64,000 nucleotides of DNA, taken from the NCBI GenBank assembly GCA_965113315.1, contig OZ220372.1; one strand, given 5' to 3'. Both the position numbers and the translations under genes were made by a program. This DNA is from Podarcis vaucheri (lineage: Eukaryota). The notes beneath the pieces were generated by a model that worked only from the letters and a program-made list of their open reading frames with translations, was not told the origin of the DNA and did no database searches. Below are positions 177-62,138 of this stretch, one piece after another; the stretch's first letter is position 1, and each line of letters begins with the position of its first letter.

Positions 177-292
177 CTGGTGATGCAATATTCTTCATCT
201 CCAGGGATGCCCAGATAACGGGGCCTCTCTCCAGTGGCAATCAGAAATCTTTCTGCTGTGTAAAACTTCTGTACTCCTTTGTTATTTGTTGC
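177..292 (-). CDS. TXNRD1: Thioredoxin reductase 1 exon ([39 protein letters not shown])
   Basis: 116-nt exon, cag acceptor, AG|GTGAG donor, IATGERPRY motif of TrxR. Confidence 0.96.
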
Positions 293-489
293 CTGTAAAT
301 AAAAATGCCAGAAATTTTTAGCTGTAAAAGCCTGTGGCTGTGAGCTCTCATTCCATGAAGCCAGAGGAGGATGTTGCTGGATGCCAAATGCTCTGGGCTA
401 GCAGCCAGTTCTAGCAGGATTTCTTCATTTGAAGCAGACCACCCAACCTTCCCCAGGAAAAGAAGGATAAAGGCGGCAATTTCCATTAC

Positions 490-635
490 CTTAATTTTGT
501 GTGGCCCGACAAACTCTCCATAAGCGTTTTCATAGGTGACTTTATTCTCCCGGAGAGACACCCTATAGCCCCAGTTCAGAGAGCCAATATAATTCTGAAC
601 TGCTTCGGTCATAGTATCCCAGCTGTGATTTATGG
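490..635 (-). CDS. TXNRD1: Thioredoxin reductase 1 exon ([48 protein letters not shown])
   Basis: 146-nt exon, tcag acceptor, AAG|GTAATG donor; [10 protein letters not shown] is TrxR-typical. Confidence 0.96.
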
Positions 636-1306
636 CTGAGGATTTAAAAACAAAAGTTAGATGGCAGTTCAGTCCTCAGCTCCCCAAGGCTTTCATTTTC
701 CATTAGCATGCTATGCAATAACAGACACACCTGATGCACGGCTGTGTCTCTCCTATTTATAATTAATTCAATTCCCCAAGGTTTGTGGAGTTTTGCCAAC
801 ACTGCACAGATTAACAATGTTGGGTGAGTGTGGTCCAGCGTATTTTGCAGGTGCTGCTGCATAATGCTCTGAAATCATCCTTTAGAAAGGAAGGTCTTAT
901 ACACACAGAACTCACATTTGCTTTGCTGCTATTATCACTGCTAATATGAACATCTGATCAGTCTTCTGATACTCCACTTGGTGTCTCCAGCTTTTAGGCA
1001 GATAAAATATGTAATCACAATAAAAACTCCTAGAACAGCCTTCCTCAACCTAGTTTTAACTACAGCACCTTTCAGCCACAGTGAATGTGGCTTATGGCCA
1101 GGGATTGAGGGAATTGTAGTACAGTATTTATAAAAAATAAATCTGTAATGCACCAGGTTGGGAGAAGGCTATCTGGGAATGCCCAAACAGTGTATAAATT
1201 TCAGAGTGTGTGTGTGTGTGTTTGTTTATACAAAGACCTCCATCCCTTTGACTCCTGCTCCCCACCAATGGTCTCTCTACACCCTCCACTCAGGTTAAAC
1301 TTCCTA

Positions 1307-1507
<201 letters not shown>

Positions 1508-2919
1508 TCATACGGCAACTCATTCTGACAGGACCACCCAGTCATTCCGTATGGCATTCAAATGGACCAGCTGTATAACTATTGGTCCGTAGGTCATTAG
1601 CTGTAGTCTGACTGCTTCTTGAAGGCCTTTAAACAGGGAAGTTGGCCCATTCTGTCAGAGCATCCAGTCTTTCCTCTGTAACAGCAACCAGAGTCCTGCC
1701 TTCCCCAGGGCAACTGGAAAAACATTACGGATCTGGACTTTTATTTCTTCAGTGTATGTATCGGGGGTGGCGGGGAGGCAGATATGGAAGCCAGGGACAA
1801 GCAAAGTGGTTTGAAGCCTATGTGACTGGTGCAACAAGGCCACTGAATTTTTCAGGGGGGAAATGGGCCCAATTTTGTCTTCCCTCACCCTTCAGAAGCA
1901 GCAGCCAGGGACACTCTGGCTGAAGGGAAATAAGTGGATGATCCCTGTTGCCCCGAAACTCCAGCAAGATAGGAAAGAGCCATGTCTCATGAGGAGATCA
2001 TCTGCTTTGCTTGGAGAAGGTTGCCAGGTTCAATCGTGAAACCCTGGAGAGCCACTGCCTGTCAGTGTAGACAAGGCTGGCCTAATTGGACCGATGGTCT
2101 AACTCAGTATAAGGCAACTTCCAACATTCATTCCACAAAAAGCCAGGGCTGCACTAGCCAGTGGATGAAGCGTCCTCATGATTTTCAGACAAAGAAAATG
2201 GAAGGCAAAGGACTCTGTAGCTGCTGCAAGAAAATCCAAATGTCACTTCCCCAAGTGAGCATGCTAGCTGCAGGGAAACTGTGATCCTATGCGTTGATTT
2301 TTTATTTTATTTTAGTAAGATGGGTCCTGCAAGGCATTTGCCTTCCCTGGGTAGAATCTCAGCAGTAAAAATGGTACTGCTGCCAAAATTAAACATTTCT
2401 ATTTCAGTCTTTAGCCATCAAAATATCAAATCAGCAAATAGCTACAAAGGGCAACCATATATATTAACCATATATTAATATATATTGAAGGGCGAAAATC
2501 TGACTTGTGCACTGTACGAAGTAGTACTTTATATGTTATGTGCCTTGCTTCTCTAGGCAATCATGTTCAAGGGTTAGGACAGGGGAGAAACAATGCAACA
2601 TGTACTATGGTGTCCAAGATTGGAAGAAAGTGCCAGCTTTGAATGGATGTCTTTAAAATAATACAATAGTAATTATCACTGTTATTAGATTCCTATACCG
2701 TCTTTCCTCCAAGGTGGCGTACACACTTATCCCCTTCCCTTATTTTATGCTCACAACCACCCTGGGAGGTAGATGACTTGCTCAAGGTCACACAGTGAGC
2801 TTCAGGGCTGAGTGGGGATTTGAACCCTGCTCTCCCAGGTCCTAGTCAAACACTCCAAGAACTATGCCACACGAGTTTCCCTAAAGTAGCAAAGGCTGAG
2901 AACCATTTACAGTACTTAC

Positions 2920-2992
2920 CCCATCTTGTTCCCAAAGGAGTAGGGACAACAAAATCCAGAACTAAGACCTTCTTGCCAAGTTTGGCAGCTTC
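2920..2992 (-). CDS. TXNRD1: Thioredoxin reductase 1 exon ([24 protein letters not shown])
   Basis: 73-nt exon, ttccag acceptor, G|GTAAGT donor. Confidence 0.96.
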
Positions 2993-6859: not shown

Positions 6860-6979
6860 CTTGGAAGCTGCAAGTCCACCTGAGCCCCCTCCAATAACTA
6901 TCAGGTCGTAGTCATAAGAAGGTACCAGTGCTTGTCCATTCACATCCAGAAGCTTTTTCAGGGTTCTTTCATGGTGTGC
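6860..6979 (-). CDS. TXNRD1: Thioredoxin reductase 1 exon (AHHERTLKKLLDVNGQALVPSYDYDLIVIGGGSGGLAASK), FAD-binding motif
   Basis: 120-nt phase 0-0 exon, tttag acceptor, AAG|GTATG donor, YDYDLIVIGGGSGG; GTG at 6943-6941 where the canonical initiator Met is expected. Confidence 0.96.
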
Positions 6980-12699: not shown

Positions 12700-13460
12700 C
12701 TTTCCCGCCCCATATGCTTCGAAGTGCCCGCGAGAAAACCTAAGACCAAAACACAGGAATACGACACGCATTCACTGAAGGAAGCAAGCGGTGCTTGAGG
12801 CTTTCCCTTCTTTGTGGGGGAGGGAAACCAAGACTTACAGCGCAATCCCATGCACGTTTACTCAGAAGCAAGCTTCCCGCCCGCCAAGTTCAGTGCACGA
12901 TCCCATGCAAGTTTACTCACCAACAAGCCCCACGGATTTCAATGGGCCTTTAACTCCTGGGGAGGGGAGGGTTAGAGCACTGCTTTAAACGGGCGTTTAA
13001 GGGCGCTGGTGAAAGCTTTGTTTCGTTTCCAGCCGTTTCCTACCTTCCCAGTCTTGTCTTGGCCTCCGATCTGGTTCTGTCGGACGAAGACGACCGGCAC
13101 CGACGGCTCCATGGCGACTTCCAGGACCGCGACTCTCAGCAGCGGCGCATCTTCTGCAAAGGGGAAGAAAGGAGAAGCACGCCGCGTGCGCGAGGAACGC
13201 CTTTTATGACGCTTCGAGCCCGGGGATTTTGGGGGGCGTGGCCTCCCGCCTCCCCAGCCTCGCCAAGTTCCTTAAAGCTCTGCGCTGAGTCAAAGGCAAA
13301 GTAAGCATGACTTGCTTTTTTTGTGACTCTCCGCCCCCCCCAGGCTTCTTCCTCCTTCCTCCTCATTACGTGCCACGGATCGAACCGGACCGAATTCGCT
13401 ACGTTTCTTTGGGGGGGGGGTAGTAGTAACACGTGGCTCCTCGGCAGCAAGAGCCAATGG
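12700..13460 (-). promoter_or_regulatory. CpG island, TXNRD1 core promoter region
   Basis: High CpG density around the 110-nt exon; TGACTCAGC (ARE/AP-1) on minus at 13284-13292, GC-box-like GGGGCG motifs, CACGTG 13430-13435, CCAAT 13454-13458. Confidence 0.8.
13044..13153 (-). CDS. TXNRD1: TXNRD1 110-nt exon, C-terminal part of the glutaredoxin domain (EDAPLLRVAVLEVAMEPSVPVVFVRQNQIGGQDKTGK); contains probable main ATG at 13112
   Basis: Long polypyrimidine tract plus gcag acceptor, AAG|GTAGG donor, in frame with the 6979 exon; aligns without gaps to recalled human EDGRALEGTLSELAAETDLPVVFVKQRKIGGHGPTLK; GTCGCC-ATG-G Kozak. Confidence 0.9.
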
Positions 13461-13703
13461 CTTCAAGTTGCAAGAAAGGAAATTCCGACTAAACATTGGG
13501 GGGTGGGCAGACTTTCTGACAGCTGTTCCGCTGTGGAACAGACTTCCGCGAGAGGTGGTGGATTCTCCTTCCTTGGAGGTTTTTAAACAGAGGTTGGATG
13601 GCCATCTGCCATGGATGCTTTAGCTGAGATTCGTGCATTGCAGGGGGTTGGACTAGATGACCCTGCGGGGTCCCTCCCAACTCTTAAGATTCAATTATTC
13701 TAT
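13452..13703 (+). mobile_element. CR1 LINE 3' fragment abutting the TXNRD1 promoter
   Basis: NGFKLQERKFRLNI-like RT C-terminus, GGGTTGGACTAGATGACC 3' UTR, ATTC tail. Confidence 0.85.
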
Positions 13704-13926
13704 TGCGTTCAGCGAGAATGCTTGCTCTTTCTGCTCAGTTCCTGTTCGCCCTGGCTCAAACTCTCCTACACTGCAGACACTTCCTTAAAAATGCTCACAT
13801 TTCATTGAATGCAAGGATCAAACATCCACTTTCTCTTCCAGATGCAAAGGATTATCTCTGTCAGCGAATAAAGCAGTGCCTGATATAGGTGCCTTTCCCT
13901 CCATTGATGGGAGAGGGTGCCTGTAG

Positions 13927-14140
13927 CATGTTGTGGTCCTGTCTCTTTTTCTGCTTTTAGATGTGGTATTCGTTTTGTGACTGGTGCCCATGTTATCCTG
14001 CCTAGATAGCTCAACTGATTACAGCGTGGTGCTGATAACACCAAGATTGCAGGTTCGATCCCGGTATGGGACAGCTGCATATTCTTGCATTTCAGGAGGT
14101 TGAACTACATGATTCTCAAGATCCCTTCCAACTCTACCAT
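13927..14140 (+). mobile_element. tRNA(Ile)-derived SINE with CR1-type tail plus a 5' segment shared with the copy at 31673-31949
   Basis: GCTGATAACACCAAGATTGCAGGTTCGATCCC head, GATCCCTTCCAACTCT tail. Confidence 0.8.
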
Positions 14141-14846
14141 TATATGGTTTTCAAAATTCCATATGTGCCCACTGGCTCCAAAAGGATGGCATCTGCTGAT
14201 TTAAGTGCTTCAACAGGCATTAGCATTGGGGATGGTGTTTAAAAAGGCTGAAAGTTACCAAACAGTTTACATAAAAAGAGTCTGCTGGAACCTTTAACAG
14301 ATTTATTGTAGTATGCATTTTCATTGACTGAAAGCCCACTTCATCAAATATGTGAGCTCCAGCTGGCAATCAGACAGAGTGACTTTATCATTCTGCATGC
14401 CTGAGTTTAGAGGGAAAGATTGAACCTGAAATGTGCAGTCTGTGACATTGTGTGTACAAAGCTCAAATATACACAAGATAAGAACAGCGGCTAATCACAG
14501 CAGGAGTAATTAGCAATAATTACTAATTTAGCACCTTTAGTGGACCTTGGTCTGGATTGCATCCTAAGCAAATAGAATAAAACATTCTGATAAAATATAG
14601 TTCCGCAATCTCACACTGGAGCCTCTGAAAGTATTTTGTTGAAGGCTCCCTTGGGTCAGGAGACCAGTGTTCTGGGAAACTGAAATATTCTCCCACTGGT
14701 TCTTGAATGCCGCCATTTTTTGAATCAGATTTGTGCTCATTTACATCTCAGGACACAAACTGATATACAGGACAAGCCAAAGCAAATGTGTATTCTTTAT
14801 TTCTCCAAAGTCTCTTCTGTCTTTAAAGCACAAGTATGAAAGCTGT

Positions 14847-15184
14847 GGCTAAAGCCTCAGCGCCTAGGGCTTGCCGATCGAAAGGTCGGCGGTTCGAATC
14901 CCCGCGGCGGGGTGCGCTCCCGCTGCTCGGTCCCAGCGCCTGCCCACCTAGCAGTTCGAAAGCACCCCCGGGGGCAAGTAGATAAATAGGTACCGCTTAC
15001 CAGCGGGAAGGTAAACGGCGTTCCGTGTGCGGCTCTGGCTCGCCAGAGCAGCGTTGTCACGCTGGCCACGTGACCCGGAAGTGTCTTCGGACAGCGCTGG
15101 CCCCCGGCCAATAGATGTGAGATGGGCGCACAAACCCCAGAGTCTGTCAAGACTGGCCCGTTCGGGCAGGGGTACCTTTACCTT
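14847..15184 (+). mobile_element. Sauria SINE, slightly 5'-truncated
   Basis: Near-identical to 4289-4652; 12-bp TSD TATGAAAGCTGT at 14835-14846 and 15185-15196. Confidence 0.95.
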
Positions 15185-15731
15185 TATGAAAGCTGTACTA
15201 GGGGTATTTTGGAATACTAGCTAGGATCGTGGAATGGATCCATCAGGAACACCACATACCAGCACCTTTTTGATTAGTACTTGTGCTAGAATTCAGATAC
15301 TATTGTATGTCTCTCCTCTGGTCCCTGGTGAATAATTCCCATAAAGAACAAGGGGTAAAGTAACACTGCTGTTTTTCCCTTCCCATGCTTATTATTGGAT
15401 CACTTACCGTATATGAGGCCTCAGGCGTCATATAAATCCAAGTTACGTATACTTTGGATCACATTTCACAGAGATAAAAGGAACTTGTTTTCAAGTAACT
15501 GTGATCAGAACAAAGGTGCCACACTTCAGGCAGATCAACCAGTTAAGGCCTTATATAAACAAGTTTAATGCCTTCAATAACATTGTCTTAAAGAAGCTTT
15601 TAAAGGAACACTTCATTTTCTGCTACCTCCCAGAAATCACAGGACACACATAGACACAGGCAAGACCAAAGACGTTGTGTGGATATTTTTAACGGGACAC
15701 TCCCTTTTTGTTCTGGGCTAGCAGCCAGTGG

Positions 15732-15750
15732 CAGCATGACAAAGCAAAAA
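15732..15750 (+). promoter_or_regulatory. Antioxidant response element-like site CAGCATGACAAAGCAAAAA (copy 1)
   Basis: RTGACnnnGCA plus A-rich flank, the NRF2-sMAF consensus. Confidence 0.5.
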
Positions 15751-15939
15751 CACACTTGTTCAATAGCATGGCAGAGATCGAGAGCTGGGATGGAGAATCT
15801 TTTTCATCTCGAAGGCTACATTTCACTTTTGGGAAGCTCTCTGCAAAGCGAGATGAGCGCTACACCCCACAGCTACTTTGACTGGACTTAACCATCCAGG
15901 GGTCCTTCACCTTACCTTTTACCTGCAACTGAAACACAG

Positions 15940-16680
15940 TATGAGGACTCTGTAGTATGAGGTGTATGGGGTATTTTAGGGGTGGGGTCGTACCTTTGGT
16001 AGGAGACACATTGTGCTCCTTCTGGGGTAGTTTGTCCACCTTTGGTCCCCACCCTGTACCCAGCTCTGACCTGTGACTCTCAGAAGTTGTCAGCATGTAA
16101 CAGCAGCCACACCCCGGGAACAGCTTTTACTGGCTGGCTAGAGAGTAGCTAGTGGGGTACCAAACCCTTGGTGAGTTAGGGGCTTCCCCTGCATGTGATT
16201 GAGTGGACAAGACCAATAGTGGGTCCAATGGTCAAGCCGGTGGTTTCTGCACATGCTGTAGAGAGAAGTGAGGGGCAGATGGGGTTTGTCAACCTGGAAT
16301 AGGGAGTCCATTTAGGAGATGGAAAACTCTAATCGTAAACCTCCGCTGCCTTGCGAAACATCTTTGGGAGAAGAAATGGCTAAGGTGTAAACCCTACACA
16401 AATCTGGAGTGGGGTCCCTAAGACAGTTGGATACCAACACCTTGTACGCCTCCTCCTGGCAACTCCTGCAGCCAATATGCCAAACATATTGCTCTGCTTT
16501 CCTTTGTACCACACCAGCGAGGCCAAGGGGAGGGTCTTGTCATCTGGGCAGCCATGATCTCCAGACACACTGCCCTGGCTTGCACCCCTAGATGGTCACT
16601 CAAACCACTAACATAGCGGTTTGACTTCGCCCCCAGAGGCACACTCCATTGTCTCTTGAGACAGACAGATGCCAACAATG
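15940..16680 (+). mobile_element. Unclassified interspersed repeat, possibly RTE-clade related
   Basis: Sharp compositional shift, GAAGGAAAACTCT-like motif, ends in GCCAACAA; family assignment tentative. Confidence 0.35.
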
Positions 16681-19163
16681 ACTCTGAATGTGCACAGAGA
16701 GTGGGATTGAATCATGGCCACTTGCCCTTGCTAACCCTGTCGTCGTCCGTTTCGCCTGCCTCACCACTCACCACAACCCCGGGTACATTCAGCATGTCTG
16801 AAAGAGCCATCCTGTCTACAACTGAAGCTAGCAACCCTTGAATAAACGTATCTGTTTGTATGTGCCTTCAGGTGATATCCCAAATGAGGACAGGGGCAGT
16901 GTTGGTGGGTAAACTACAGGGCTCAGAATTACTTGGGGGAAAGTATGTGCTTTGAATGTGCTTTAAAGGTACAGTGCATACACAGCCTAAAAGTCACTGT
17001 GGGAATTACTTCTTGTAGACATGCCTAGGAATGAGCATTTAGGCTCCCTGGCTGATTGTCATAAGACAGGAGGAAAAGACCAACAAAGAGGGAGGGAAAC
17101 AAGTATCTTGTGAGCTTCGGACAACTGGTTGTGTAACCTATTAAAATGCCGTGAGAGAAAAGCAGCTACTACTTAAGTATGAAAATGCAGTCTTTCGTAA
17201 TCTACCCTGCACCCCTAAATATGCTGATATAAGATGAAGATCTGGATTCTTTGGGTATCGCAAAGAAATAAACAAGAGTAATCGGACTTGTAAATGAAAA
17301 TTAAGGTATCAGGTAAATGTTGGGGGAGGCATAACTTGGCTGAAAATTAGCAAAATTGCTCCGTAGGGGGTTTAGCTTAGAAAATAATTATGGTTTGGTT
17401 GTTCTACAAATTGATTTTTTGCAATAGTTGTACATTCAAGTCTCTTGTCAAGATACATTCACTGTTGATGGATACAGGGCACTTCCATTTTGTGGGGGCT
17501 GTATTAGGTTCCTGGCAGTGAGTGCACAGGTCAAACACATTGGAACTGTGCCAATTCCCCTGCTAAACCCCACGAGGCAGACTTTTCATCTCCAATTTTC
17601 CTGTGAATCTTTGCAGTGGGTTTCACCAGAGCTTTGGGCTGTTTCCCAGAACATCACAGTTGTTGTGATTAATCAACTAGGACAGTTAAAGTTGATTAAC
17701 CTTAAATTGATTAGTCCCATGAGTTTTAATTGATGAACTAGTTGGCAGCAGTTTGCATATGACTACTACAACAGCCTTGAAGGAAAAGCACACTTTGTCC
17801 TTAGGTGTATTGATACATCAGCAGGAACTATCTTAGAAAGGGCATTCTGTCTTGCACTTCTGCAATGTGCCTGCCAACTGCAGTTTTTATATGCACAAAT
17901 TGAAAATAATGTAACATTTAAAAGAACCATACAACACAGCAGCCACCCTGTTGCCAGATTAATCAGGTATGTCTGTTCAGTGGAGTGATGAATCAAATGA
18001 TTAAACTTTGCAGTCCTACAAATTATTCCTTGCCTTCTTGCCAACGGCGAGTAAAAAATTGCCTCTGGGCAAGGACAGGATGCTATACTAAATAATGCAG
18101 TAATACTACAAATTACCCAGTAATTGCCTAGGTGTTTCATTCATGCTTATGTTCCCGCCCTTATCCTGGAATTCTGGAGATTAAGATTTGAGAACAGGCT
18201 GTCTGCCTCAGCCCTGAGAAACTCCAGATCTTCTTTGCATGAGAAAACTTGCCCACTTCCTCACCTGCTTCACTCCTGAGACAGTGGATGAGCTAGAGAG
18301 AAGCTTCTGCCCTGTCTCCCTGGACACCATTGAGCCTAGGGCTCAGAATCCAGGACAATAATTATTGCAACACAGGTGTGACTATTATTTCCCAAACAGG
18401 CAAAGCCCTAAACTAGGGGTGGGTAAACCTGCACTCCTCCAGACTCCCATCAGTCCCAGCCAGCAGGGCCAACAGTCAAAGATGCTGGGAGTGGTTGTTT
18501 AGCAACATCCAGAGGGTCACAGGTTCCCCAGCCTTGCTCTGCCCTAAGATGCCTCCTTGGTTGCTCATTCCATTAATGGAGAAACTGCTGCCAGTCTGGC
18601 TCCTAGCTAAGGTGGAGGGTATATTAAGCCAAACGGTGCTTGTTTTCAGCAGTGCCAATGTGTGCATTAGATAAACCAGGAAATGCAAAAATTAAGCTGC
18701 AGTTACCCATTTTGAAATATTAAACTAATTATCAGGTTTTTTGTGGGGGGAGTGGAATTCAAACACACAGGAGCCAGGAAGTACTAGACAAGGAGGAAAG
18801 ACAACAAAATGTGCAGGTTGCAATTCAATCGCGTTTTCACCACTACACAATATAGCAAGCAGAGAAAGGAAAATCTGATTCTCAATCAGTTTCTAACATG
18901 GGAGCATGTTCAGATATTTTATAGTGGAGGGGCGCTTTCAGAAAAGTGATTTTAGAACTGCCCTAAAGGGCTGTGGTTTCCTATGTCTCTTTAATATTTT
19001 ACTATTATAAACTTCCCTATTTGATTTTACATTAATAGTAAAATAATTTTAAAGGTTCCCTGGCTGTCCTGAACCTACAACCAGGTGTAGATAGGAGAAT
19101 GCAAGAGTTTTGCGTGGAGCTTTTAAGCTGCCACACCTTTTGCACTGTCCAAAGTCTCAGCTA

Positions 19164-19182
19164 CAGCATGACAAAGCAAAAA
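19164..19182 (+). promoter_or_regulatory. Antioxidant response element-like site CAGCATGACAAAGCAAAAA (copy 2)
   Basis: Identical 19-mer to 15732-15750. Confidence 0.5.
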
Positions 19183-19760
19183 GAAAGTGCCCTATAATTA
19201 TCATAGGTAGTCTCTAATAATGTTATATGCATGCATCTACATTCATTCCCTCTGCAGTGCATGACCAAACCTTCCTGTTTTCACTGTAGCTGTTTTCATT
19301 ATGCTGATAAATTCCTGTTCTTGCTGTCTTTTTGTGGAATCTACCTCCCTTTTATGCTCTGTGCCCCAGTGTTTGTTACACCTTTTTCATACAAGACTGA
19401 AGTGCCGAACAGTTCACGGAAGTTTGTCTTTTGACTTAAAGAATCGTTAGAAGTTAGGAAAGTGAAAAGAGCTTGACTCGATTCAGCTATTTGACCTAGA
19501 TATTCAGGACAGGCAGAGAATGGTTAGTATTTGTTCAGTCCAGAAAATTATACTTTCCCACTTTGAGAAAGTTGCCACAAAAAGCCTCAACTTCCTGCCT
19601 TGCACACTCCTCATATTTTGTACTCATGGGGAGATCGAAAGCATCTGTTTTCGCTTTTAATCTAAACACCGTTCCCCATTGCCAACAGAACTCAGGGAAC
19701 TGTGGTTTACATACACCATGGTTAATGGGAACAAAACTATAATCAAACCATGGTTTGAGA

Positions 19761-19822
19761 TCCTGGCTTGTTCTCAACAATCCTAGCTTGTTCTCAATAA
19801 TCCTGGCTTGTTCTCAACAATC
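19761..19822 (+). repeat. 20-bp tandem repeat TCCTGGCTTGTTCTCAACAA x3
   Basis: Three near-perfect consecutive copies. Confidence 0.9.
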
Positions 19823-20846
19823 ACAGTTCCCCAAGTTTGGCCATCACATGGCACTCTAGTTAGCTTAAAAGTGAAAGCTCTTCCTCCTCACAGGACACAC
19901 ACACACACAGAGAGAGAGAGAGAACATATGGTGCTGTCAGTGACAATGCCAAGAGCAGCTATAATGAAGAGCAGAGGTAGTGTGCTTGAGTGTGCGTTCA
20001 GGAGAAGACATACATCATATTTCTAGAGCAGAAAGACCAGCCTGGAAGTGCCCTCATTATATTCAGTCCAAAATTACCTTTCCGCTCCATGGTCAGTTCT
20101 CTTCATAAAAAGCGGAAGCTGACTATGCACAGCTCTTGGAGAGCTGTTTATGGTAATCTTGGGCATGCACACGCCCGTTTCCTGAATTACAGTTTGCAGG
20201 CAAGTGCAAACCATAGTTTGACCACTTAGACAAGATAGGAAACCAAGGTTTGCAGCTAAATGAACACTGGGAGTTCCAAAGGAAGGAGGGAATATATGAG
20301 CTTGAGGTGCTCCTGCAACCTTGATTGTTCTCTAGTCCTGTGTTTTGTCTTGCTGCTTGCACCTGCCTCCTCATCTGTCCTGAGGCCCTAACTTTTATTT
20401 CCCCCTTGTTTCTGTCTTCAAATTCGTCCTTTAGCCCTGACTTTCCTCTTTGGTTTTGACTCCTGGCTTTGTTCCTCTACTCTGGTCCCCTAGCGCAACT
20501 CTTGGCTCCTGATTTCCTGGCTTATCACAGACCGCTTCCCTGAACAATGTTATTGTTAATTATATGCTAATTAGAGGTTGATTAATTGACAAACAGCACA
20601 ATTTAGACATAATACATTTGTGATTAGCCTAATTTCGCCTTGATTTAAAAATAATAGGTGCATATGATGAGAACTGGAAAACTATGTAAGATAAATGAGA
20701 TACAGATTTTGTATCTTCAGTTTTGTGTTAATGAATAAAATAGCCAGTAGCATCAGCTTCTGTAATTCTTCAGTAACTTTAATTTAGCATCCATACTCTT
20801 CGCCTACCAAATTCTGCATTACTTTGCATGAAAGCAAACGCATTGC

Positions 20847-20929
20847 CTTCTTACAGAAGCTGCAAGTTTTACTGCTGAAGATCATAACATCGTTTTCATC
20901 TCTGAGTGTGTGGGTGATTAACTTCCAGT
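20847..20929 (-). CDS. TXNRD1: Putative TXNRD1 glutaredoxin-domain exon with CSFC site (DWKLITHTLRDENDVMIFSSKTCSFCKK)
   Basis: VMIFSSKTCSFC matches the Grx beta1/active-site pattern (recalled human VVIFSRSTCTRC); phase-1 aag acceptor after a ctaat branch point; donor would be GC (AAG|GCAATG); boundaries uncertain. Confidence 0.7.
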
Positions 20930-21431
20930 CTTCATATAGAAATATTACAAGAAGATTAGATAAGGGCGAGCATGAACATTATGCTCAAACTGGATGGATG
21001 AAAATCAACTACTGTACTTAAAAAACGAAACAAGTTGGAGTTGCAATTGTTTAAAAATAGTAACTATTTCAATAATATGGATATAAGCATATTCTCAGGA
21101 CAGAAAAACATAATGGAACTCCCACACAGGTGGCAATGAAGGTCACCAACTTGGATGGCTTTGAAAGAGGATTGGACAAATTCATGGAGGAGAATGCCAT
21201 CAATGGCTACTAGCTATGATAGCTACCGTAACTCCACCAGAGGCAAATTTAGGGCAGTGGGACTGGTTCTGCCACACTGGGTGCCAAGCCTAGTTTTGTG
21301 GGCCCCATTTTATACAAAACCCTTCCAGCAGAGGCCAGACAGGCCCCCTCCATAAGGAACATCCAGCATCTGCAGAAGACTTTTTCTTACACCAGCAGGC
21401 GTTTTAACTGAATTCTGTTTTTATCGTTTTA

Positions 21432-27133: not shown

Positions 27134-28510
27134 ACATACATACATACATACACATATATATACACATACATATAGAGAGAATGTGTGTGATTTTGGGGTA
27201 TTCTCTCCCCTTGGGAAGGCTGAATGTTCTCAATGCAACAGGTTTCTTGACAGCATCCATATTGCAATGTTTTGAATTAGAACAAAAGAATATTTAATGC
27301 AACCTTTCCAACTGCCTTCGCTAATACATCAGCTCTTACTTATCACTTATAAAGAGCAGCTTCCGGCTAATATGAGTGGAAACTGGAAGTCAGGTGGAAA
27401 GGACCAGTGGCAAAGTTCTGGGGCAGGGACTGGGGAATCTGCAGCCCTCCAAATGTTACTGGATGTTGCTCACCCCTGACCACTGACCTTGGTCAATGCC
27501 AATATGGTGCAGTGGTGAGAAGCCAGGGTTCAAATCCCTGCCCACCTGGTGACCTTGGGCCAGTCACTGTCTCTCAGACTCGCCTACCTCACAGGGTCAC
27601 TGTGAGGATAAAATGGGGTGAGGGAGGGCCATGCCTGCCATCTTCAACTTTTTGGAGGAAAAGAGGGATAGTCATGTAAATAAACTGGCCATGCTTGCTG
27701 GGAACTGGAGTCCAGCACCTTCTGGAAGGTTGGAGGGAATCCCTCTTCTATGGCACAGAACAACCTATTGGACTGACGGGTCTTCCATGCCACAACCACA
27801 TGCCTATTATCCTCCGGGCCAGATCTGTATGTGAACAGCATGGTAGCCTGCCTGTTTTGAGTCAGCTCTGTTGTTTTCCTATAGGCAGTTTTGTTGGGGT
27901 GCCCCCTGGCCTTTCCTGCTTTCTGCTTGCCATACCCTGTAATCTAGATGAGCATCACAGGTCACACTCCTCCCTTAGGGAGGCTAAGATGTTAGGAATG
28001 TGTGGGTAGATAGCCTCTTGCACATCTGTGCCAGATCTAGGTGATTTTTAGTACTAAAGCTACAGTCCTGCTCTAGCACTAAAAGGGAAATTCAGGGGCT
28101 GACTCTTGGTGTTTAGCATCTCCACCTTTCAGGGCAACTTCCCCCAAAGAATCTGGGAACTGTAGTTTCCCCCTTAAAGAGCTACAATTCCCAGCACTCT
28201 TTTCGGGCAGCTGGTCGTGTGCTTTAAATGTGTGTTGGGGGTTCTTGTGCATTGTGTGGATCTGTCCTCGTAGCTGGACAAAACTTGGGTCTTCTATCAA
28301 ATGCAGATTTCCTGCAATAAATGTACGTAGCTATACTCAAGAGTCCCCGTGTGTTTGTATTCAGGGTAATATAATGTGCTCCCCCAGCAGGGATTGAGCG
28401 TTCAGTTCAGCTTCTGCCAGTGTTTTAACACCAACAGACTCTCTAGGAGCAGAAGACGCCCACACCAACTTTCCTGTTGTGACCGAATGGATAGATATTT
28501 ATCCAGTTAT

Positions 28511-31672: not shown

Positions 31673-31949
31673 GAATAATAAAGTTGGAAGGGACCCTGAG
31701 GATTATCTGGTCCAACTCCCTGAAATGCTGGAATATGCAGCTGTCCCATACAGGGATTGAACCTGCAATCTTGGTGTTATCAGCACCACACTGTAATCAA
31801 CTGAGCTATCCAGGCAGGATAACATGGGCACCTGTCACAAAACAAATACCACGTGTAAAGGCAGAAAAAGAGACAGGACCGCAACATGATCAAACCTGCA
31901 ACCTTAGACTTATCAGCACCCTGCTCTAACCAAACTGAACTATCCAGGC
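31673..31949 (-). mobile_element. Composite tRNA(Ile) SINE: head + linker + head + CR1 tail
   Basis: Inverted copy of 13927-14140 plus an extra tRNA-like head at 31889-31949. Confidence 0.78.
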
Positions 31950-32479: not shown

Positions 32480-33040
32480 CTTCCGTCACTCCGAACTAAG
32501 AGCAAGAAGAAGTCTAGGCTTTACCCACCTGGGGCGGGCGGGGCTTTTGCCCTGGGGTCGCGGCTGGCGGTGCCCGCGGGCGCCTGGCGAACCACTTTGC
32601 CCTTCCTCACGGAGCTGCCCATGACGCCCCAGCACTCGCAGCGCCCCCTGCTGGCCGTTGGGCGCAAACGCCGCCGGGAACCCAGCTGGCGGGGCGCGTA
32701 TTGAGGTCTCTCTCTCGTTTCTCCCTTCGTGCGAGCAGCAGGAACGGAGCCTCCGAGGGAAGCGGGGCCGCTGCAGCCTTGCAGCCTTTCGGGAGTTTCG
32801 CGCTGCCAAGAAGGAGCTACCTCGCCTTCTCTGCCATCGTGCCGGTTGCGATGGCAATCGGATGCCAAACAAATGAATGAAATCCTGGACTAAGGAAGGG
32901 AAGGTGCGACCCCTGCTGGCCAAAGCGGCTCATGCTACTATTTCGACAAGGGGAATTTACTCCAGACTCTCGGTGTTTTGTCGGAGGGAATCAGCTGCAA
33001 ACCAGAACTTTAGGTTTCCTCATTTTGAATCGCAGAGCGC
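32480..33040 (-). promoter_or_regulatory. CpG island, distal TXNRD1 (Grx isoform) promoter
   Basis: CpG-rich with GGGGCGGGCGGGG and other GC boxes around the MGSS exon. Confidence 0.7.
32529..32622 (-). CDS. TXNRD1: Putative first coding exon of the long Grx-TXNRD1 isoform (MGSSVRKGKVVRQAPAGTASRDPRAKAPPAP)
   Basis: GGCGTC-ATG-G Kozak in a CpG island, CAG|GTGGGT donor, 94 nt ending in phase 1, compatible with the 20929 exon (G+AC = Asp). Confidence 0.7.
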
Positions 33041-42278: not shown

Positions 42279-44796
42279 TTATTTGTACCCCGCCCATGTA
42301 GGGACGCGGGTGGCGCTGTGGGTTAAAGCCTCAGCGCCTAGGGCTTGCCGATCGAAAGGTTGGCGGTTCGAATCCCCGCAGCGGGGTGCGCTCCCGCTGC
42401 TCGGTCCCAGCGCCTGCCAACCTAGCAGTTCGAAAGCACCCCCGGGTGCAAGTAGATAAATAGGTACCGCTTACCAGCGGGAAGGTAAACGGCGTTCCGT
42501 GTGCTGCGCTGGCTCGCCAGATGCAGCTTTGTCACGCTGGCCACGTGACCCGGAAGTGTCTCCGGACAGCGCTGGCCCCCGGCCTATAGATGTGAGATGG
42601 GCGCACAAACCCCAGAGTCTGTCAAGACTGGCCCGTCGGGCAGGGGTACCTTTACCTTTACCTTTACCCCGCCCATCTGGCTGGGTTTCCCCAGCCCTCT
42701 GGGCGGCTTCCAACAAAGATGAAAGATACACTAAAATGTCACATATTAAAAACTTCCCTGAACAGGGCTGACTTCAGATGTCTTCTGAATGTCAGGTAGA
42801 TGTTTATCACTTTGACATCTGATGGGAGGGCGTTCCACAGGGTGGGCGCCAATACCGAGAAGGCCCTCTGCCTGGTTCCCTGTAACTTGGCCTCTTGCAG
42901 TGAGGGAACCGCCAGAAGGCCCTCAGAGCTGGACCTCAGTGTCTGGGCAGAATGATGGGGAAGGAGACACTCCTTCAGATATACTGGACCGAGGCCGTTT
43001 AGGGCTTTAAAGGTCAGCACCAACACGTTGAATTGTGCTCGGAAACGTACTGGGAGCCAATGTAGGTCTTTCAAGACAGGTGTTATATGGTCTCGGCGGC
43101 CGCTCCCAGTCACCAGTCTAGCTGCCGCATTCTAGATTAGTTGTAGTTTCCGGGTCACATTTAAAGGTAGCCCCACGTAGAGCGCATTGCAGTAGTCCAA
43201 GCGGGAGATAACCAGAGTATGTACCACTCTGGCGAGACAGTCTGCAGGCAGATAGGGTCTCAGCCTACGTACCAGATGGAGCTGGTAAACAGCTGCCCTG
43301 GATACAGATTTGACTTGTGCCTCCATGGACAGCTGTGAGTCCAAAATGACTCCCAGGCTGCATACCTGGTCCTTCAGGGGCACAGTTACCCCATTCAGGA
43401 CCAGGGAATCCTCTACACCTGCCCGCCTCCTGTCCCCCAAAAACAGTACTTCTGTCTTGTCAGGATTCAACCTCAATCTGTTAGCCGCCATCCATCCTCC
43501 AACCGCTTCCAGACACTCACACAGGACCTTCACTGCCTTCACTGGTTCTGATTTAAAAGAGAGGTAGAGCTGGGTATCATCCGCATACTGATGAACACCC
43601 AGCCCAAACCTCTTGATGATCTCTCCCAGTGGCTGCATGTAAATGCTGAAAAGCATGGAGAGGACAGAACCCTGAGGCACCCCACAAGTGAGAGCCCAGG
43701 GGTCTGAACACTCATCCCCCACCACCACTTTCTGAACACGGCCCAGGAGGAAGGAGCGGAACCACTGTATGACAGTGCCCCCAGCTCCCAGCCCCTCAAG
43801 ACGGTCCAGAAGGATGTTATGGTCGATGGTATCAAACGCCGCTGAGAGATCCAGCAGAACTAGGAAACAGCTCTCACCTTTGTCCCTAGCCTCCCGGAGA
43901 TCATCAACCAGTGCGACCAAGGCAGTTTCAGTCCTATGATGAGGCCTGAATCCCGACTGGAAGGGATCCAAATGGTCCGCTTCTTCCAGGCGTGCCTGGA
44001 GTTGTTCAGCAACCACTGGCTCAATCACCTTGCCCAAGAATGGAAGATTTGAGACTGGGCGATAATTGGCCATTGTGGCCGCATCTAAAGATGGTTTTTT
44101 AAGAAGCGGTTTAATAACCGCCTCTTTCAGCGGGTCTTGGAAGGCTCCCTCACAGAGGGAAGCATTCACCACCCATCAAAGCCCATCACCCAGTCCTTCC
44201 CGGCTAGCTTTTATAAGCCAGGATGGGCAAGGATCCAGGAGACAGGTGGTTGGCTTCACTCGCCCAAGCAGCCTGTCCACATCCTCGGAGGTAACAGATT
44301 GGTATTGATCCCACACAGCTTGACTAGACAGGACTTTAGCACTCTCCCGCCCTGGCCCTGCTCCCACGGTGGAGTCTACTTCTTCCCGAATCTGAGCGAT
44401 TTTATCTGCAAAAAACTTTGCAAAATCATTGCAGGAGATCATGTGGCCCGTACTGGGCCCCGATGTTGCAGGTGGTTCCGCTAAATTGTGAACCACTTGA
44501 AAAAGTCTCCTGCTGCTGTTTTCTGCAGATGCAATAGAGGCGGCGAAGAATGTCTTCTTCGCCGTTGCTATCGCCACTTGGTAGGCTCGATGTTGAGCTT
44601 TAACCTGTGTCCGGTCAGATTCGGAATGAGTTATCTGCCACCGGCGCTCTAGCCGTCTCAACGATTATTTCATTGCCCTCAGATCTGTGGAAAACCACGG
44701 GGCTCTCCGGGCTCCATGCAATTGGAGAGGGTGCTTCGGAGCCAAACAGTCAATAGCCCTGGTTAACTCCACATTCCAGTGGGCCACCAGGGAATC
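42249..44796 (-). mobile_element. 5'-truncated L2 LINE, about 2.2 kb, with RT domain (three in-frame stops)
   Basis: NYRPVSNLPFLGK, LDLSAAFDT, GVPQGSVL and YADD motifs in a single frame; (ATT)n tail; Sauria SINE inserted near its 3' end. Confidence 0.95.
42298..42664 (+). mobile_element. Sauria SINE nested in the L2 3' end
   Basis: 12-bp TSD TACCCCGCCCAT at 42286-42297 and 42665-42676. Confidence 0.95.
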
Positions 44797-45414: not shown

Positions 45415-47017
45415 GTAAGTAATGTATTGGTCAAAGACAGTGTCCATTCTTATTGTCATTTTTCACATTGCAGCTTGCAGACGTGTAGAAGAGACGTTAC
45501 TGCAGCCCTGTGAAAATGTATCATAGTCTGTAAAAGACTATATCATAAGACTCATTCACAGCTCTGTATTAAATTAATAGCTCTTATATGAGACCATTGC
45601 TCAGCAATGATAAAATTAATGTATACCATGTAGTACTTGTGTGCCATATGCTTCAATCCTGTGCACATTTCCTTGGGCTCAAGCCGCATGGAACCTAATG
45701 GGTGCTATCAGTTGTTGGTCATACTTAAGTCCATTGATTTCAGTGGATCTACATTTAGTATGACTTACTGGTAGTTGGGTATCACCCAGTGAGACATATT
45801 TAATGAGTAGCATTGTGTTGCAAGTAATGTGAGAAAAAGCTCATATTGGTACTGAACCAATCATTTTATTTTAACAATATTTTAAACAGTTTTAAAAATA
45901 ATTTTTGTGGCAATCCTTAAGATTACCAGTTCTGTCTCTTGTAGATCTACAATATGTCCTAAAAATCTAGTTTTCTGGGATCTTGTAATGTAATATCTGT
46001 AAACACATAAAGAGTATAAAAGGAACCCTGCTGGTTTCAACTACAAGCCTATCTAGTCCAGCATTGTGTTTCCCACACTTGTCTATGGGAAGCCCAACGG
46101 CAGAAGATGACTACAGTCGCACTCTCCAGCAAGTGTTTCCCAACAACTGAGATTCAGAGGCATCATGCCTCTGATCTTGATGGTAGCATACAGCCATGAT
46201 GAATAATTTCTGTTGGTAGTCTTTTCCTTCATGAATTTATTTAATTTGCTTTTAAAGCAGCATGTATGTCAGTGGACAAGATCACATACTGTGATAGCAA
46301 ATGAGCTCTGTCAAACCAGTAGAATGATCTCTTCCTTTTCAAGGGGCGGGCATTTGGAGAAAAAAGATGCAAGAGAAACTTTACTAACAGTTACTGTACA
46401 GCAGTTGTTTTGATGATGGTCAAAGGCTTTGTAATGGGAGGTGGTTTTCCAAATAAGGTAGGGTTGTCATACGCCCGGTTTCTGCCAGACGTGTCCTATA
46501 TGCCTGCTCTTTTGGGGATGACCCATAGCTTTGTGCTAAACTACATGCTTTGCATGCAGAAAGCCTCAGGTTCAATTTCTGGCATCTCCTGGTAGGGGCA
46601 AACCCTCTCTGAAACCTGGAAGAATCGCTGATGGTCAGTAGAGACAATGCTGAACTAGATGTGTGTGTATGTGTCATACAGTGATAAGCTATGTAACCCT
46701 TTCCCCCCCTTCGTGCTCCTAAAATGTCAGTTTTCAGCCCAGATTATTTTGACATGCTGGGATCACCCAGGAAAGCTGAAGAATGAGAAAGTGTATATGT
46801 TTACCTTTTTTTGTACATTTTTAAGGTGGGAATGTGAACTTCTATAGTCTACATATATGACAGGCATTTAAAATGAGAGCTATCATAGTAAAGTTGGCAA
46901 ATGTGTCTTTTTTTTCCTCTTCAAAATATGGCAACCCTGAAACAAGGTGTAAGTGAGGTTTTCAAAGGGGTACAACATATGAAGCTAATATTTGTATATT
47001 ATGCTCTCTTTTTTTAG

Positions 47018-47148
47018 ATACGGAGGATAGCATGAATGATCATGAAGACACAAATGGCTCCAAAGAGAGTTTTAGAGAACAAGATATATATCTTCCAATT
47101 GCAAATGTGGCAAGGATAATGAAGAATGCTATACCTCAGACAGGAAAG
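47018..47148 (+). CDS. NFYB: NF-YB coding exon 2 (DTEDSMNDHEDTNGSKESFREQDIYLPIANVARIMKNAIPQTGK)
   Basis: 131 nt, tttag acceptor, AAG|GTAATA donor, histone-fold start REQDIYLPIANV. Confidence 0.98.
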
Positions 47149-47753
47149 GTAATAACTCAGAAAGAGAGCTTTGCTAGCATTCCAGAATCTTAGATTCATC
47201 ATAGAATTTTTTTAAATGTGGCATAATCATTGGGTTGCATTCAGTGGGGGTTTAAGACCAAATATTGAGAGCTACTTCAGATGTGATGTAACAATGAGAG
47301 CAGGAAGTACAAGTGCTTTCTAATCCTCCACATCTCCAGCTGCCCAAAACAACTTTTGCATCTGCCTCTCATGGAGGGATTCTGGTCCTAGGTCCCCAAT
47401 TGTTGCTGGACTACATCCCATCATCCCTGACCATTCTGCATACTGGCTGGTGGTTGCACTTCAGCAACATCTGTGGACACACAGTTAGGGAAGGCTACTC
47501 TAAATGAATTTCAGCTTTGGTTTTTCAATTATTATTATTTCTAAAAAACTACTACTCAATTCAAAATTGTCAAACATTTCAAAATTGAGGTAATGTGTAC
47601 AATTAAACAGTTCTGTTTGGGGTAGCCTTACTGGCCCAAAACATTTTATTTTGTTGGCAGTTTTGCTGGTGTATATAGTAGGGTTAATTCAGATTGGAAA
47701 CAAGAAATAGTTTGATTACTAGATGATGATGATTCTGATGCTGTTTATTCTAG

Positions 47754-47951
47754 ATTGCTAAAGATGCAAAGGAATGTGTTCAGGAGTGCGTAAGTGAATT
47801 CATAAGCTTTATAACATCGGAAGCAAGTGAGAGGTGTCATCAAGAAAAACGGAAGACTATAAATGGGGAGGATATTCTCTTTGCCATGTCCACTCTGGGA
47901 TTTGACAGCTACGTGGAACCTTTGAAGTTGTACCTTCAGAAGTTCAGAGAG
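47754..47951 (+). CDS. NFYB: NF-YB coding exon 3, histone fold ([28 protein letters not shown]...YLQKFRE)
   Basis: 198 nt, ctag acceptor, GAG|GTTTGT donor. Confidence 0.98.
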
Positions 47952-50036
47952 GTTTGTAATCTTTCTGTGGTTTTACTTTACAACAGTTTGGAATTTTGTC
48001 TGTTATGACTACTTACTGTTTTTATATTTTATATAAACCAGGGGTGTTGACTGAAAATTTTATTTATATGAAGCCTATTTTCAGAATGTAAATGCTATCA
48101 TGTTTCTTTTTTAAAAAAATATATGTAATTTTTGTTGATGAACCAGCTGGTTTATATGCTTTTAAGGATTTGGCCTTTTTCTATCCCTGCTAGATTAGTG
48201 TTGCAACTTAGATGGCATTCACTGGTCTGAAAAAGAAGCTTGTGTTTACTAGCTTGCTGCTTTTACTTCATGTTTTTATTATCGCATGGTGCACTATTTA
48301 GAATTGCTTTATTTTAATGTGTCAAGTCCAGGAGAGCACATGGTCAAGCATCTCCACAAATTCAATGCGAAGCTTGAATAATCTAGCATTTGCATTCCCC
48401 TTTTGACTCTTCTCCTCTTCCCATATGTTATGCAATGTTTTACTTCCTATCTGGATCTGTCATGTCACAGGTAGACTTTCTATCCTCTCTGCCTTGCATC
48501 TATTTAACATTATTGTGCTTATTCTGGCCAAGAAGAACAGCAGCTATTGCCCACACACTTGCTCTTTTATTTTTATTTATTTAAAAACATTTTTAGGTCA
48601 CACTTCATATTAAAAGCCCCAAAGCGGTTTATGACAGTGGATTAAAACATTCCTAATGCCTGATAGGATAGGTGGGGGAGGGGGGGGGCAGCTGCTTTGT
48701 TCTTTGTAATCCCATAATGATGTGGGGGACAGATTGTGGTGGCGGTTCTCTTCATTGTCATTTTCTTACTTTCCTTCTTACTGTGGGTAGTGCTAAGGGG
48801 CAACAGCAATAAGGAGGGTGAACTAGCAGCAGTGGAAAGAAAGAGTCTCCTGAGTTAAGAAGCTACATTGCAAAATGTTTGAAATGAGCACTTAATGTAA
48901 TGTGTAAAGAAATCTGCAGTCGCTTTCTGTGGCAGTAGCTCAGCATTGCTCATCCCTGCCCTTTGCTCCTTTTCACATTGAATGCTGTTTGTGTGCAATT
49001 TGTGCCAGCAATAATTCCTTCTTATCCGAACGGGCTACGATGCACAGGTTAAACTGCTGCAGTTTCAAATGCACAAGTGGCAACTTGGGCTGCTACAGAC
49101 ATGCAACCTCTTGAATCTTCCTAGTTGTTTCTGGTGACACGAGGTCTAGCTCCCACAACCCTTTCACCCTCCTGTTTTTGGCAACCACTCACTAGAAGAT
49201 GTATATGAGAGGTTGTGTTTGCTGAAGAACCATAGACCTCTTGCAATAAAAGCTGAAGGAAATATCACACACCTGTAATTTAAATATTGCTGTTAATTGC
49301 ATTAACTGTGCTTGGATCTGTCTCTTGAGCTGCCTTTCCACCTTGCCTCATTTCTGTTCAGGGTTAGAATTCAGCTGTAGTGGACCTCCTGAAAACAGCT
49401 CAAGGCCATAGGCTTCTGGCCCGACTCAGGGGGGTTCTTCACACTTGCTTCTCACCCAAGGGGAGAATTCTGTGCGAATCTCTGGTTTGGCTAATTTAGA
49501 GCCTGCTGCATTCAGCCTTCGAGCCTCCAGATTGAGCCAAGCTTCCAGTTTTGACTACAAACCTCCTGACTGAATGCAGACTGTGTGACACAGACTGAAC
49601 CCAGGTTTACTCTGCTTAGTTAGTTTATAGTGTATAGCTTCTGATGCACAGCATCTCCTAACTTTATGTACATAGTGTAAATAGTTATCTTGTTGTTTGA
49701 GGCAATATAAACACTTTATACTTAACTCAGTGAGCAAGGAGTTTTCTCTGAAATGGCTAGCAATAACAAAGGGGGAAGATCCTGAAGCTCTGCTGTGCTA
49801 CTCTGCTGGTTACACTGCTACAGGTGTGATCTTAAAATGTTATCAACATTCACACCAAGAATACAGATAGAATTATTGGTGTACAAAATATGTAGAATTA
49901 CAGAATTTTGTAATGGCGATCCAGGGTTTGAAAAACCTATTGCGTATAAACTACACTGCTGTTCCAAAAAGTGTGCAATGATTTAAGTGGTTGAAAGTGC
50001 TTGTATCATACAAAACATCATTTATGCTTTTTCAAG

Positions 50037-61431: not shown

Positions 61432-62138
61432 CTCTGTCAGGGGTACACACCTTTTTTATTTTTATTGAAGGCCACACTGCTGTTAACTGTGGGTAAACAT
61501 TTTTATACATATTTAGCCCAGTGCTTTCTTTCAATTGCATTGTTACCCGCTTCCTCCTTTTCTCCCACAACCCCAGATCCTCATCTCTAAGCAATCTCTA
61601 TGTTTTTTCTGCAGTATATCTTTGCACCATGCATGATTGTATGTATCTTTTATCATGTCCCCCCATAGAGATCTTTTCTCTCAACTAAAAAGCTTCCAAC
61701 TCTTTAGTCCTTCCTCATAGAGGTGGTGTTTCAACACTCTGCTCCTTTTGGCAGCTATTGGCTGCATCTCTTCCAGTGCCAAGACACACAATTTAAGAAA
61801 GGCGACCAGAACCATTGATAAACAGATGTTCCTACAAAGAGATGGGAGTTGGCTGCATAAAGTCAGAGAAGTGGCTTTTGGCCCTTCAGTTTTGCACATC
61901 TGCCCAATGAAACGCTGATGCAACCCACAACCCATACTGCGCAACCCACAACAGCCTATGTTGAGCTAATAATTTGGACGAAGTGTCTCATGATTTCCAA
62001 ACATAAAATATATGCCAGTAGATAATTTTGACTTGACAATTATACAAATGTATTACTAAAGAACAAGTTCCCACAAACAAACAACCTGTACATATTATAG
62101 AGAAAAGTCAGGGTGTCTGAATAAATCATCCCCTTTAC

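What the first reader, a model, noticed from the sequence alone, without database searches (positions are those of the whole stretch)
20847..20929. Hidden glutaredoxin dithiol exon (CSFC) implies a Grx-TrxR1 fusion isoform in a lizard
Seen: DENDVMIFSSKT-CSFC-KK on minus (Cys codons 20864-20853), absent from the ORF track. Known: mammalian TXNRD1_v3 has an atypical CTRC motif, TXNRD3 has monothiol CPHS, and classical Grx2 uses CSYC. Inference: the lizard motif is closer to the classical dithiol/Grx2 type, so the fusion may retain glutathione-dependent activity or Fe-S binding, and the v3 architecture would predate the mammal-reptile split.
Basis: partly seen in the sequence, partly recalled or inferred. 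Interest (0 to 1): 0.7.

Follow-up and report, generated by a model that had tools for sequence, protein, structure and literature searches.

The report
Leftover glutaredoxin exon in lizard TXNRD1
This lizard's thioredoxin reductase 1 gene still carries a recognisable piece of an old glutaredoxin domain, but the next piece is not found and the splice signal is weak, so it is likely a dead leftover rather than a hidden working enzyme form.

Summary
The 83-nt minus-strand segment (20929-20847) is real. It is the orthologue of the CxxC-bearing glutaredoxin exon ('exon B') of TXNRD1; CSFC lies at 20864-20853.

It likely cannot give a Grx-TrxR1 fusion here:
- The next Grx exon ('C', 20 aa) is undetectable in the gap-free 7.7-kb intron, although the same profile finds it in this genome's TXNRD3.
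- B ends in a weak GC donor, and B joined to exon E is out of frame.
- In a close relative, two RNA runs with 314 and 15 E-to-core junction reads had 0 reads on B (tissues unknown).
- None of 7 public lacertid proteins contains B or C; two join the start exon directly to E.
- A second decayed optional exon lies upstream.

The evolutionary inference is already published (PMC3316567): the Grx domain is ancestral to TR1 and was lost in rodents. Intact Grx-TXNRD1 is annotated in many reptiles, including CSFC in Varanus. CSFC does not indicate Grx2-like chemistry: the middle residues vary freely and the GSH-binding Lys is absent.

Verdict: likely a lineage-specific relic of a known isoform; low interest.

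The parts
20847..20929 (-). TXNRD1 Grx exon B relic (83 nt, phase 1 to phase 0; CSFC at 20864-20853); open frame, GC donor, no downstream exon C
   Evidence: 0 reads
20841..20849 (-). Non-canonical donor AAG|GCAATG; a working donor of the same gene reads AAG|GTAATG
13154..20846 (-). Intron B-E (7.7 kb, no N) in which Grx exon C is expected and not found
   Evidence: positive control
32529..32622 (-). Start exon A (MGSSVRK..., ends phase 1) in a CpG-rich stretch; in frame with both B and E; Gly2/Lys7 conserved
27189..27265 (-). Decayed optional exon (CCQET... matches python isoform X1); second half in another frame, followed by a microsatellite and a repeat copy; ends approximate
13044..13153 (-). 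Grx exon E (110 nt), expressed; holds ATG at 13112 (MEPSVP), the start of the annotated 533-aa lacertid protein
6860..6979 (-). First common TrxR core exon (no Met: DVNG); spliced to exon E
177..2992 (-). Further TXNRD1 core exons (incl. CVNVGC active site near 1360-1479); gene continues left of the window to a GC*G* (Sec) end

Best explanation
The segment is the CxxC exon of the ancestral glutaredoxin domain of TXNRD1, likely left as an unused relic after this lizard lineage lost the Grx-TrxR1 isoform. In other reptiles exons A-B-C-E are joined to the core; here exon C is not found, B has a weak GC donor and B joined to E hits a stop. The gene likely makes TrxR1 from a start in exon E (533 aa) and, per public annotation, from exon A spliced straight to E (578 aa), both without a Grx domain. 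The paralogue TXNRD3 keeps a full CPFC Grx domain.
For: Shown: (1) Exon C profile best score in the B-E intron is 20.3, equal to background (21.6 elsewhere on the strand), versus at least 55.9 leave-one-out for real exons; B (66.5) and E (89.5) are found at once. (2) The same approach finds exon C at 58.7, plus B and E with GT donors, in this genome's TXNRD3. A genome-wide exon-C pattern gave 45 matches: one perfect match, at TXNRD3, and none at this locus. (3) The interval has no N. (4) A+B+E+core stops at residue 64; A+E+core is open. Of 9 candidate donors in or after B, 2 give an open join to E, both weak (3-4 of 9). (5) RNA of related organism A: E-to-core junction 314 reads (X10) and 15 (X12), against 0 reads on 20260-21120 in both. 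The only RNA-like contig on B (X1, depth 2.2) runs unspliced through the donor; that run's TXNRD1 contig (depth 61.6) begins at 13229. (6) 0 of 7 lacertid and 0 of 6 Rhineura public proteins contain B or C; P0073/P0074 join A to E and lack PF00462. (7) One DNA run of organism A shows 3 substitutions in the 83 nt, 2 amino-acid-changing, and a segregating 5-nt indel 6 nt before the acceptor. (8) A second dead exon upstream still matches python at 11 of 14 residues, so residual similarity does not prove use. Inferred: the loss event and its order.
Against: Exon B itself has no stop or frameshift and keeps both Cys. Its mean identity to intact squamates (0.56) is only a little below their pairwise mean (0.63). 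GC donors can work and are enriched in alternative exons (PMC2490688, passages). B spliced directly to the core exon would be in frame. The RNA is from a relative, of unknown tissue, and only 6% and 12% of each run was read; human v3 is rare and testis-enriched (PMC8914392), so a rare isoform could be missed. X11 had no expression baseline and is no test. The A-to-E splice was not seen in reads here (exon A lay outside both lays). The junction and loose-end tables were cut (156 joints and 2759 loose ends not shown). Three substitutions are too few for a selection test. Absence of exon C was not checked in a second assembly.
Confidence: 0.82

Rival explanations
1. A rare, tissue-restricted full Grx-TrxR1 (v3-like) isoform exists, with exon C missing from this assembly or diverged beyond recognition.
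For: B is open, in phase with exon A and keeps CxxC. Intact isoforms exist in geckos, anoles, Varanus, Hemicordylus and snakes. Sampled tissues are unknown.
Against: No gap in the intron. Exon C is the best-conserved Grx exon among squamates (0.68 pairwise) yet scores at background. 0 of 7 lacertid proteins have it. GC donor with poor flanks. 0 reads.
Confidence: 0.06
2. Exon B is still spliced at a low level, either straight to the core (in frame, giving a half-Grx CxxC tag that would not fold as a glutaredoxin) or into exon E as a stop-introducing poison exon that tunes exon-A transcripts.
For: A+B+core is open, and A+B+E stops early. B is well preserved. GC donors are linked to alternative splicing (PMC2490688).
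Against: 0 reads on B where the gene is expressed. Amino-acid changes and an acceptor-side indel segregate in organism A. No public isoform with B among those listed.
Confidence: 0.11
3. The CSFC stretch is a chance open frame in intron DNA.
For: Alone it reaches no Pfam family and only E about 2 against GLRX2 structures.
Against: Profile score 66.5 versus at most 17.8 elsewhere in the window; correct position, strand and phase between exons A and E; 68% identity to python exon B.
Confidence: 0.01

Closest known systems
Grx-TR1 / TXNRD1_v3 (exons A, B, C, E + core; PMC3316567 section 10)
   Same: Same gene, same exon order and phases for A, B, E and core; CxxC in exon B.
   Different: Exon C not found, GC donor on B, no reads on B; no complete Grx domain can be assembled.
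Rodent fossil Grx exons of Txnrd1 (PMC3316567, citing its ref. 40, which was not held)
   Same: Grx exons remain recognisable upstream of a working TR1 gene after the isoform was lost.
   Different: Likely an independent loss in a squamate lineage; exon A and E are retained and, per annotation, joined.
Annotated reptile Grx-TXNRD1 proteins (Varanus P0076 with CSFC, Python P0101, Anolis P0005, Alligator P0024, Caretta P0051)
   Same: 46-68% identity over exon B for the seven squamates compared; identical CSFC motif in Varanus.
   Different: They contain exon C and pass PF00462; lacertid proteins do not.
TXNRD3/TGR of this genome (G000:C10:92.08-92.10 Mb)
   Same: Same B/C/E exon boundaries, dithiol motif (CPFC).
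   Different: Paralogue with all exons, GT donors, the Lys before the motif, TVP and GGCD intact.
Glutaredoxin 2 (CSYC; PDB 2cq9, 2fls, 2ht9)
   Same: C-S-aromatic-C motif; weak local match (E about 2).
   Different: A separate gene here (L002); Grx2 has Lys at the -3 position where this exon has Ser.

Membership tests
TXNRD1 Grx exon B orthologue | Lies upstream of a TXNRD1 (not TXNRD3) core | tested here: met
   Exons A, E and core exon 1 are exact substrings of a protein named TXNRD1 (P0073); a separate TXNRD3 exists on C10; NF-YB domain exons are adjacent (the human NFYB-TXNRD1 neighbourhood is recalled).
TXNRD1 Grx exon B orthologue | Sequence, order and phase match exon B | tested here: met
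Grx-TrxR1 (v3-type) fusion isoform | All four exons A, B, C, E present | tested here: not met
   Exon C absent (control)
Grx-TrxR1 (v3-type) fusion isoform | Continuous reading frame from B through E to the core | tested here: not met
   A+B+E+core stops at residue 64
Grx-TrxR1 (v3-type) fusion isoform | Exon B spliced in mRNA | tested here: inconclusive
   0 reads in 2 informative runs of a relative; tissues unknown
Glutaredoxin domain (PF00462) | Profile match above cut-off | tested here: not met
   No match for exon B, exon E or lacertid proteins P0061/P0073/P0074; match for P0076, P0101, P0005, P0051, P0024
GSH-dependent dithiol glutaredoxin (Grx1/Grx2 type) | CxxC motif | tested here: met
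   CSFC at 20864-20853
GSH-dependent dithiol glutaredoxin (Grx1/Grx2 type) | GSH-binding residues: Lys three before Cys1, TVP, GGxD (role recalled) | tested here: not met
   Ser at -3; SVP; GGQD. 0 of 34 reptile Grx-TXNRD1 entries have the Lys; TXNRD3 has all
GSH-dependent dithiol glutaredoxin (Grx1/Grx2 type) | HED/GSSG activity or Fe-S binding | not testable with these tools
   Needs recombinant protein; human v3 Grx lacks Grx activity (PMC8914392 passage)
Pseudo-exon (relic) | Neutral evolution across related species | tested here: inconclusive
   2 non-synonymous + 1 synonymous change and one flanking indel in one relative; too few for a test

The most novel reading that the evidence does not exclude
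What sauropsids conserve in the v3-type TXNRD1 isoform is the exon-A membrane anchor, not the glutaredoxin. Gly2 and Lys7 are invariant in 39 of 39 exon-A starts, while exons B/C appear dropped independently in lacertids, birds and agamids, and the motif became CxxS in turtles and crocodilians. The A-to-E splice, also annotated in turtles, would give an acylated, membrane-bound TrxR1 without Grx.
Probability: 0.45. Interest if true: 0.35.

Novelty: new member of a known kind. Interest (0 to 1): 0.17.

Why it matters
As proposed, it adds little: the Grx-TR1 fusion and its pre-tetrapod age are published, and intact reptile versions are already annotated. The modest new point is a likely further independent loss of the Grx module, in lacertids. 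Together with birds and agamids, which keep the Gly2 start exon but show no B/C, this gives natural deletion variants to ask whether the v3-type isoform is kept for membrane targeting rather than glutaredoxin chemistry. That fits the reported lack of Grx activity and raft targeting of human v3 (PMC8914392).

Tried and rejected
Protein searches with the exon-B frame found nothing: 2 candidates, none scoring, among longer proteins, and no candidate at near length. This is weak evidence and was not used.

The whole-protein genome search missed exon C even at TXNRD3, so it is not a test of absence.

A splice-signal enumeration gave 41 candidate mini-exons in the intron, none resembling exon C by eye. 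Half-exon profiles stayed below the lowest real score in all three halves tried.

The 5' extension that python, snake, turtle and other exon-B regions have was not detected upstream of 20930 (8 of 8 at background).

The cryptic TCT|GTAAGA donor inside the second Cys codon gives a stop with both E and the core.

The look-up of sequencing runs: no RNA holder listed on record. 6 of 22 listed runs were laid (X1, X2, X6, X10, X11, X12); X11 had no baseline.

Rfam found no SECIS at gathering score in L013 or L012; the 3' UTR may not be fully covered, not pursued.

Donor positions of core exons c2-c5 printed were off by one and are superseded. One search crashed part-way and was rerun. In one search, 9 of 48 hits were spurious matches inside the core and were dropped before the 39 of 39 count.

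Earlier-findings look-ups returned nothing. No structure or complex prediction was run.

Full report
Observation. It is preceded by AG and followed by GCAATG. A profile of the equivalent exon from 14 distinct homologue sequences scores it 66.5, against 17.8 for the best other place on either strand of the window. It is a real homologue, not chance.

Locus. Thioredoxin reductase core exons lie on the minus strand from 6979 leftwards and continue beyond the window to a GC*G* (Sec) end. NF-YB exons lie on the plus strand at 47-48 kb and fn3-domain exons at 62-63 kb; the HCFC2-NFYB-TXNRD1 order in human is recalled, not tested. Exons A (32622-32529), E (13153-13044) and core exon 1 (6979-6860) translate to exact substrings of a public Podarcis TXNRD1 (P0073). 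A second gene on contig C10 is TXNRD3, with complete Grx exons, GT donors and CPFC. The window gene is therefore TXNRD1 of a lacertid.

What is known. PMC3316567 (passages and the whole of section 10 read; its alignment figure S35 is an image and was not seen) states four things. Grx-TR1 is built from exons A, B, C and E. The Grx domain is in the major fish TR1. TR1 and TGR arose by duplication before amphibians with the same exon boundaries. The isoform was lost in rodents, leaving fossil sequence. The claim that the architecture predates the mammal-reptile split is thus published. Of 137 proteins fetched, 36 have a complete B+C+E domain: 2 frog TXNRD3 and 34 reptile TXNRD1 entries. All 20 squamate entries are CxxC (CKFC 7, CKLC 7, CSKC 2, CKRC 2, CSNC 1, CSFC 1 in Varanus). 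All 14 turtle and crocodilian entries are CxxS. These entries include isoforms of one species, so they are not independent.

The module is broken here. Exon C (20 aa) is the best-conserved Grx exon among seven squamates (mean pairwise identity 0.68, versus 0.63 for B and 0.53 for E). Its profile scores at most 20.3 in the B-E intron, which is background; real exons score at least 55.9 in leave-one-out, and TXNRD3's exon C scores 58.7. A genome-wide degenerate pattern gave 45 matches. The only perfect one is TXNRD3's exon, one is in the Grx2-like gene (L002), and none is at this locus. The intron has no N. Exon C covers about a third of the Pfam glutaredoxin profile in the Varanus protein, so without it the fold is predicted not to form.

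Splicing. B ends in phase 0 and E starts in phase 1, so A+B+E+core stops at residue 64, whereas A+E+core is open. B's donor AAG|GCAATG matches the consensus at 5 of 9 positions; a working donor of the same gene is AAG|GTAATG. Working GC donors usually follow the consensus more closely elsewhere, though they are enriched in alternative exons (PMC2490688, passages). B joined directly to the core would be in frame and remains a possible minor product.

Expression. In raw RNA of related organism A, the E-to-core junction had 314 reads (29 starts) in X10 and 15 reads in X12. No read lay on 20260-21120 in X10, X12 or X11 (X11 has no baseline). For X10 this puts B use below roughly 1% of the gene's junction reads (my rule-of-three estimate). 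In X1 (RNA by guess) the TXNRD1 contig, depth 61.6, begins at 13229 just upstream of E, and a depth-2.2 contig runs unspliced across B's donor; X2 holds an intronic piece beside it. Tissues are unknown, only 6-12% of the raw runs were read, and one search's tables were cut, so a rare testis isoform is not excluded by RNA alone. Public annotation agrees: 0 of 7 lacertid and 0 of 6 Rhineura proteins contain B or C (15 of 17 members of that cluster were listed). Four lacertid entries start at the Met in exon E, two join A to E, and one partial model reads into E from upstream.

Signs of decay. One DNA run of organism A shows three substitutions within the 83 nt (I to L, T to R, one silent) and a 5-nt indel on one of two alleles, 6 nt before the acceptor. 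By my hand reading, the longer allele has a cleaner in-frame CAG acceptor 9 nt upstream that this genome lacks; polarity is not shown. At about 27265-27189 lies a second relic, matching an optional python exon at 11 of 14 residues (score 67 versus at most 37 elsewhere on the strand), with its second half in another frame. So high residual similarity is compatible with a dead exon. Against decay: B has no internal stop, keeps both Cys, and is only slightly more diverged than intact copies (0.56 versus 0.63).

Chemistry. CSFC resembles Grx2's CSYC, but the two middle residues vary freely across squamates. The Lys three residues before the first Cys, present in Grx2 and in TXNRD3 and recalled as a GSH contact, is absent in 34 of 34 reptile Grx-TXNRD1 entries and is Ser here. 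Human v3's CTRC domain lacks Grx activity and targets membrane rafts (PMC8914392, passage). The N-acylation paper was seen only as a title in that reference list, and three primary papers were not held. No GSH activity or Fe-S binding can be inferred.

Mechanism proposed. Shown: exon B, A and E present; C undetectable; frame logic; E-to-core splicing. Inferred: the lineage deleted exon C, after which B and the optional exon drifted. Exon E was likely kept because it supplies the main start codon (9 of 9 squamate entries checked lack the Met in core exon 1) and accepts exon A. Exon A keeps Gly2 and Lys7 in 39 of 39 aligned starts, consistent with N-myristoylation plus a basic patch (inferred, untested). 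A-to-E forms are annotated in turtles alongside Grx forms and in birds, where 0 of 28 entries show B or C; agamid entries also lack them. These absences rest on annotation, not on genome scans.

Novelty. Searches for TXNRD1 or thioredoxin reductase with glutaredoxin and lizard or squamate found no paper; some searches found PMC3316567 as the only evolutionary treatment. The library lacks most subscription journals. The lacertid loss may be unreported, but it is one more case of a known kind.

Verdict. Observation confirmed; fusion isoform in this lizard unlikely (about 0.06 full-length, 0.11 minor truncated or poison use); relic 0.82; interest 0.17.

Noticed in passing
P0021, P0023-P0028, P0038, P0049-P0052, P0118, P0127: Turtle and crocodilian Grx-TXNRD1 entries are monothiol (CSLS 13, CSHS 1), whereas PMC3316567 describes Grx-TR1s as conserved CxxC.
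   Followed up: partly
window 6979-6860 (minus) and 13112: Core exon 1 lacks the Met that starts the bird 497-aa form (9 of 9 squamate entries checked); the main lacertid protein starts at a Met inside Grx exon E.
   Followed up: partly
window 32622-32529 (minus): Start exon MGSSVRKGK with Gly2 and Lys7 invariant in 39 of 39 sauropsid starts, including birds, agamids and lacertids whose entries lack the Grx exons B/C; likely acylation anchor.
   Followed up: partly
window about 27265-27189 (minus): Frameshifted relic of a Cys-rich optional exon seen in python, anole, gecko and agamid isoforms.
   Followed up: partly
window about 8560-8357 (minus): Stop-containing matches to extra exons annotated between E and the core in Rhineura isoforms X1-X3; possibly shared intronic sequence exonised only in Rhineura.
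   Followed up: no
window 46957-48008 (+) and 62095-63442 (-): NF-YB exons and fn3-domain exons (HCFC2-like; name recalled); CpG-rich stretch at 36-38 kb.
   Followed up: partly
window 42739-44664 (minus): Non-LTR retrotransposon copy with a 347-aa RVT_1 frame.
   Followed up: no
window 31750-31808 (minus), similar sequence near 13927-14150: Partial tRNA match (Rfam 34.2 bits), probably a tRNA-derived SINE head.
   Followed up: no
G000:C10:92077065-92103991 (L009-L012): TXNRD3 with intact CPFC Grx domain and GC*G* end.
   Followed up: partly
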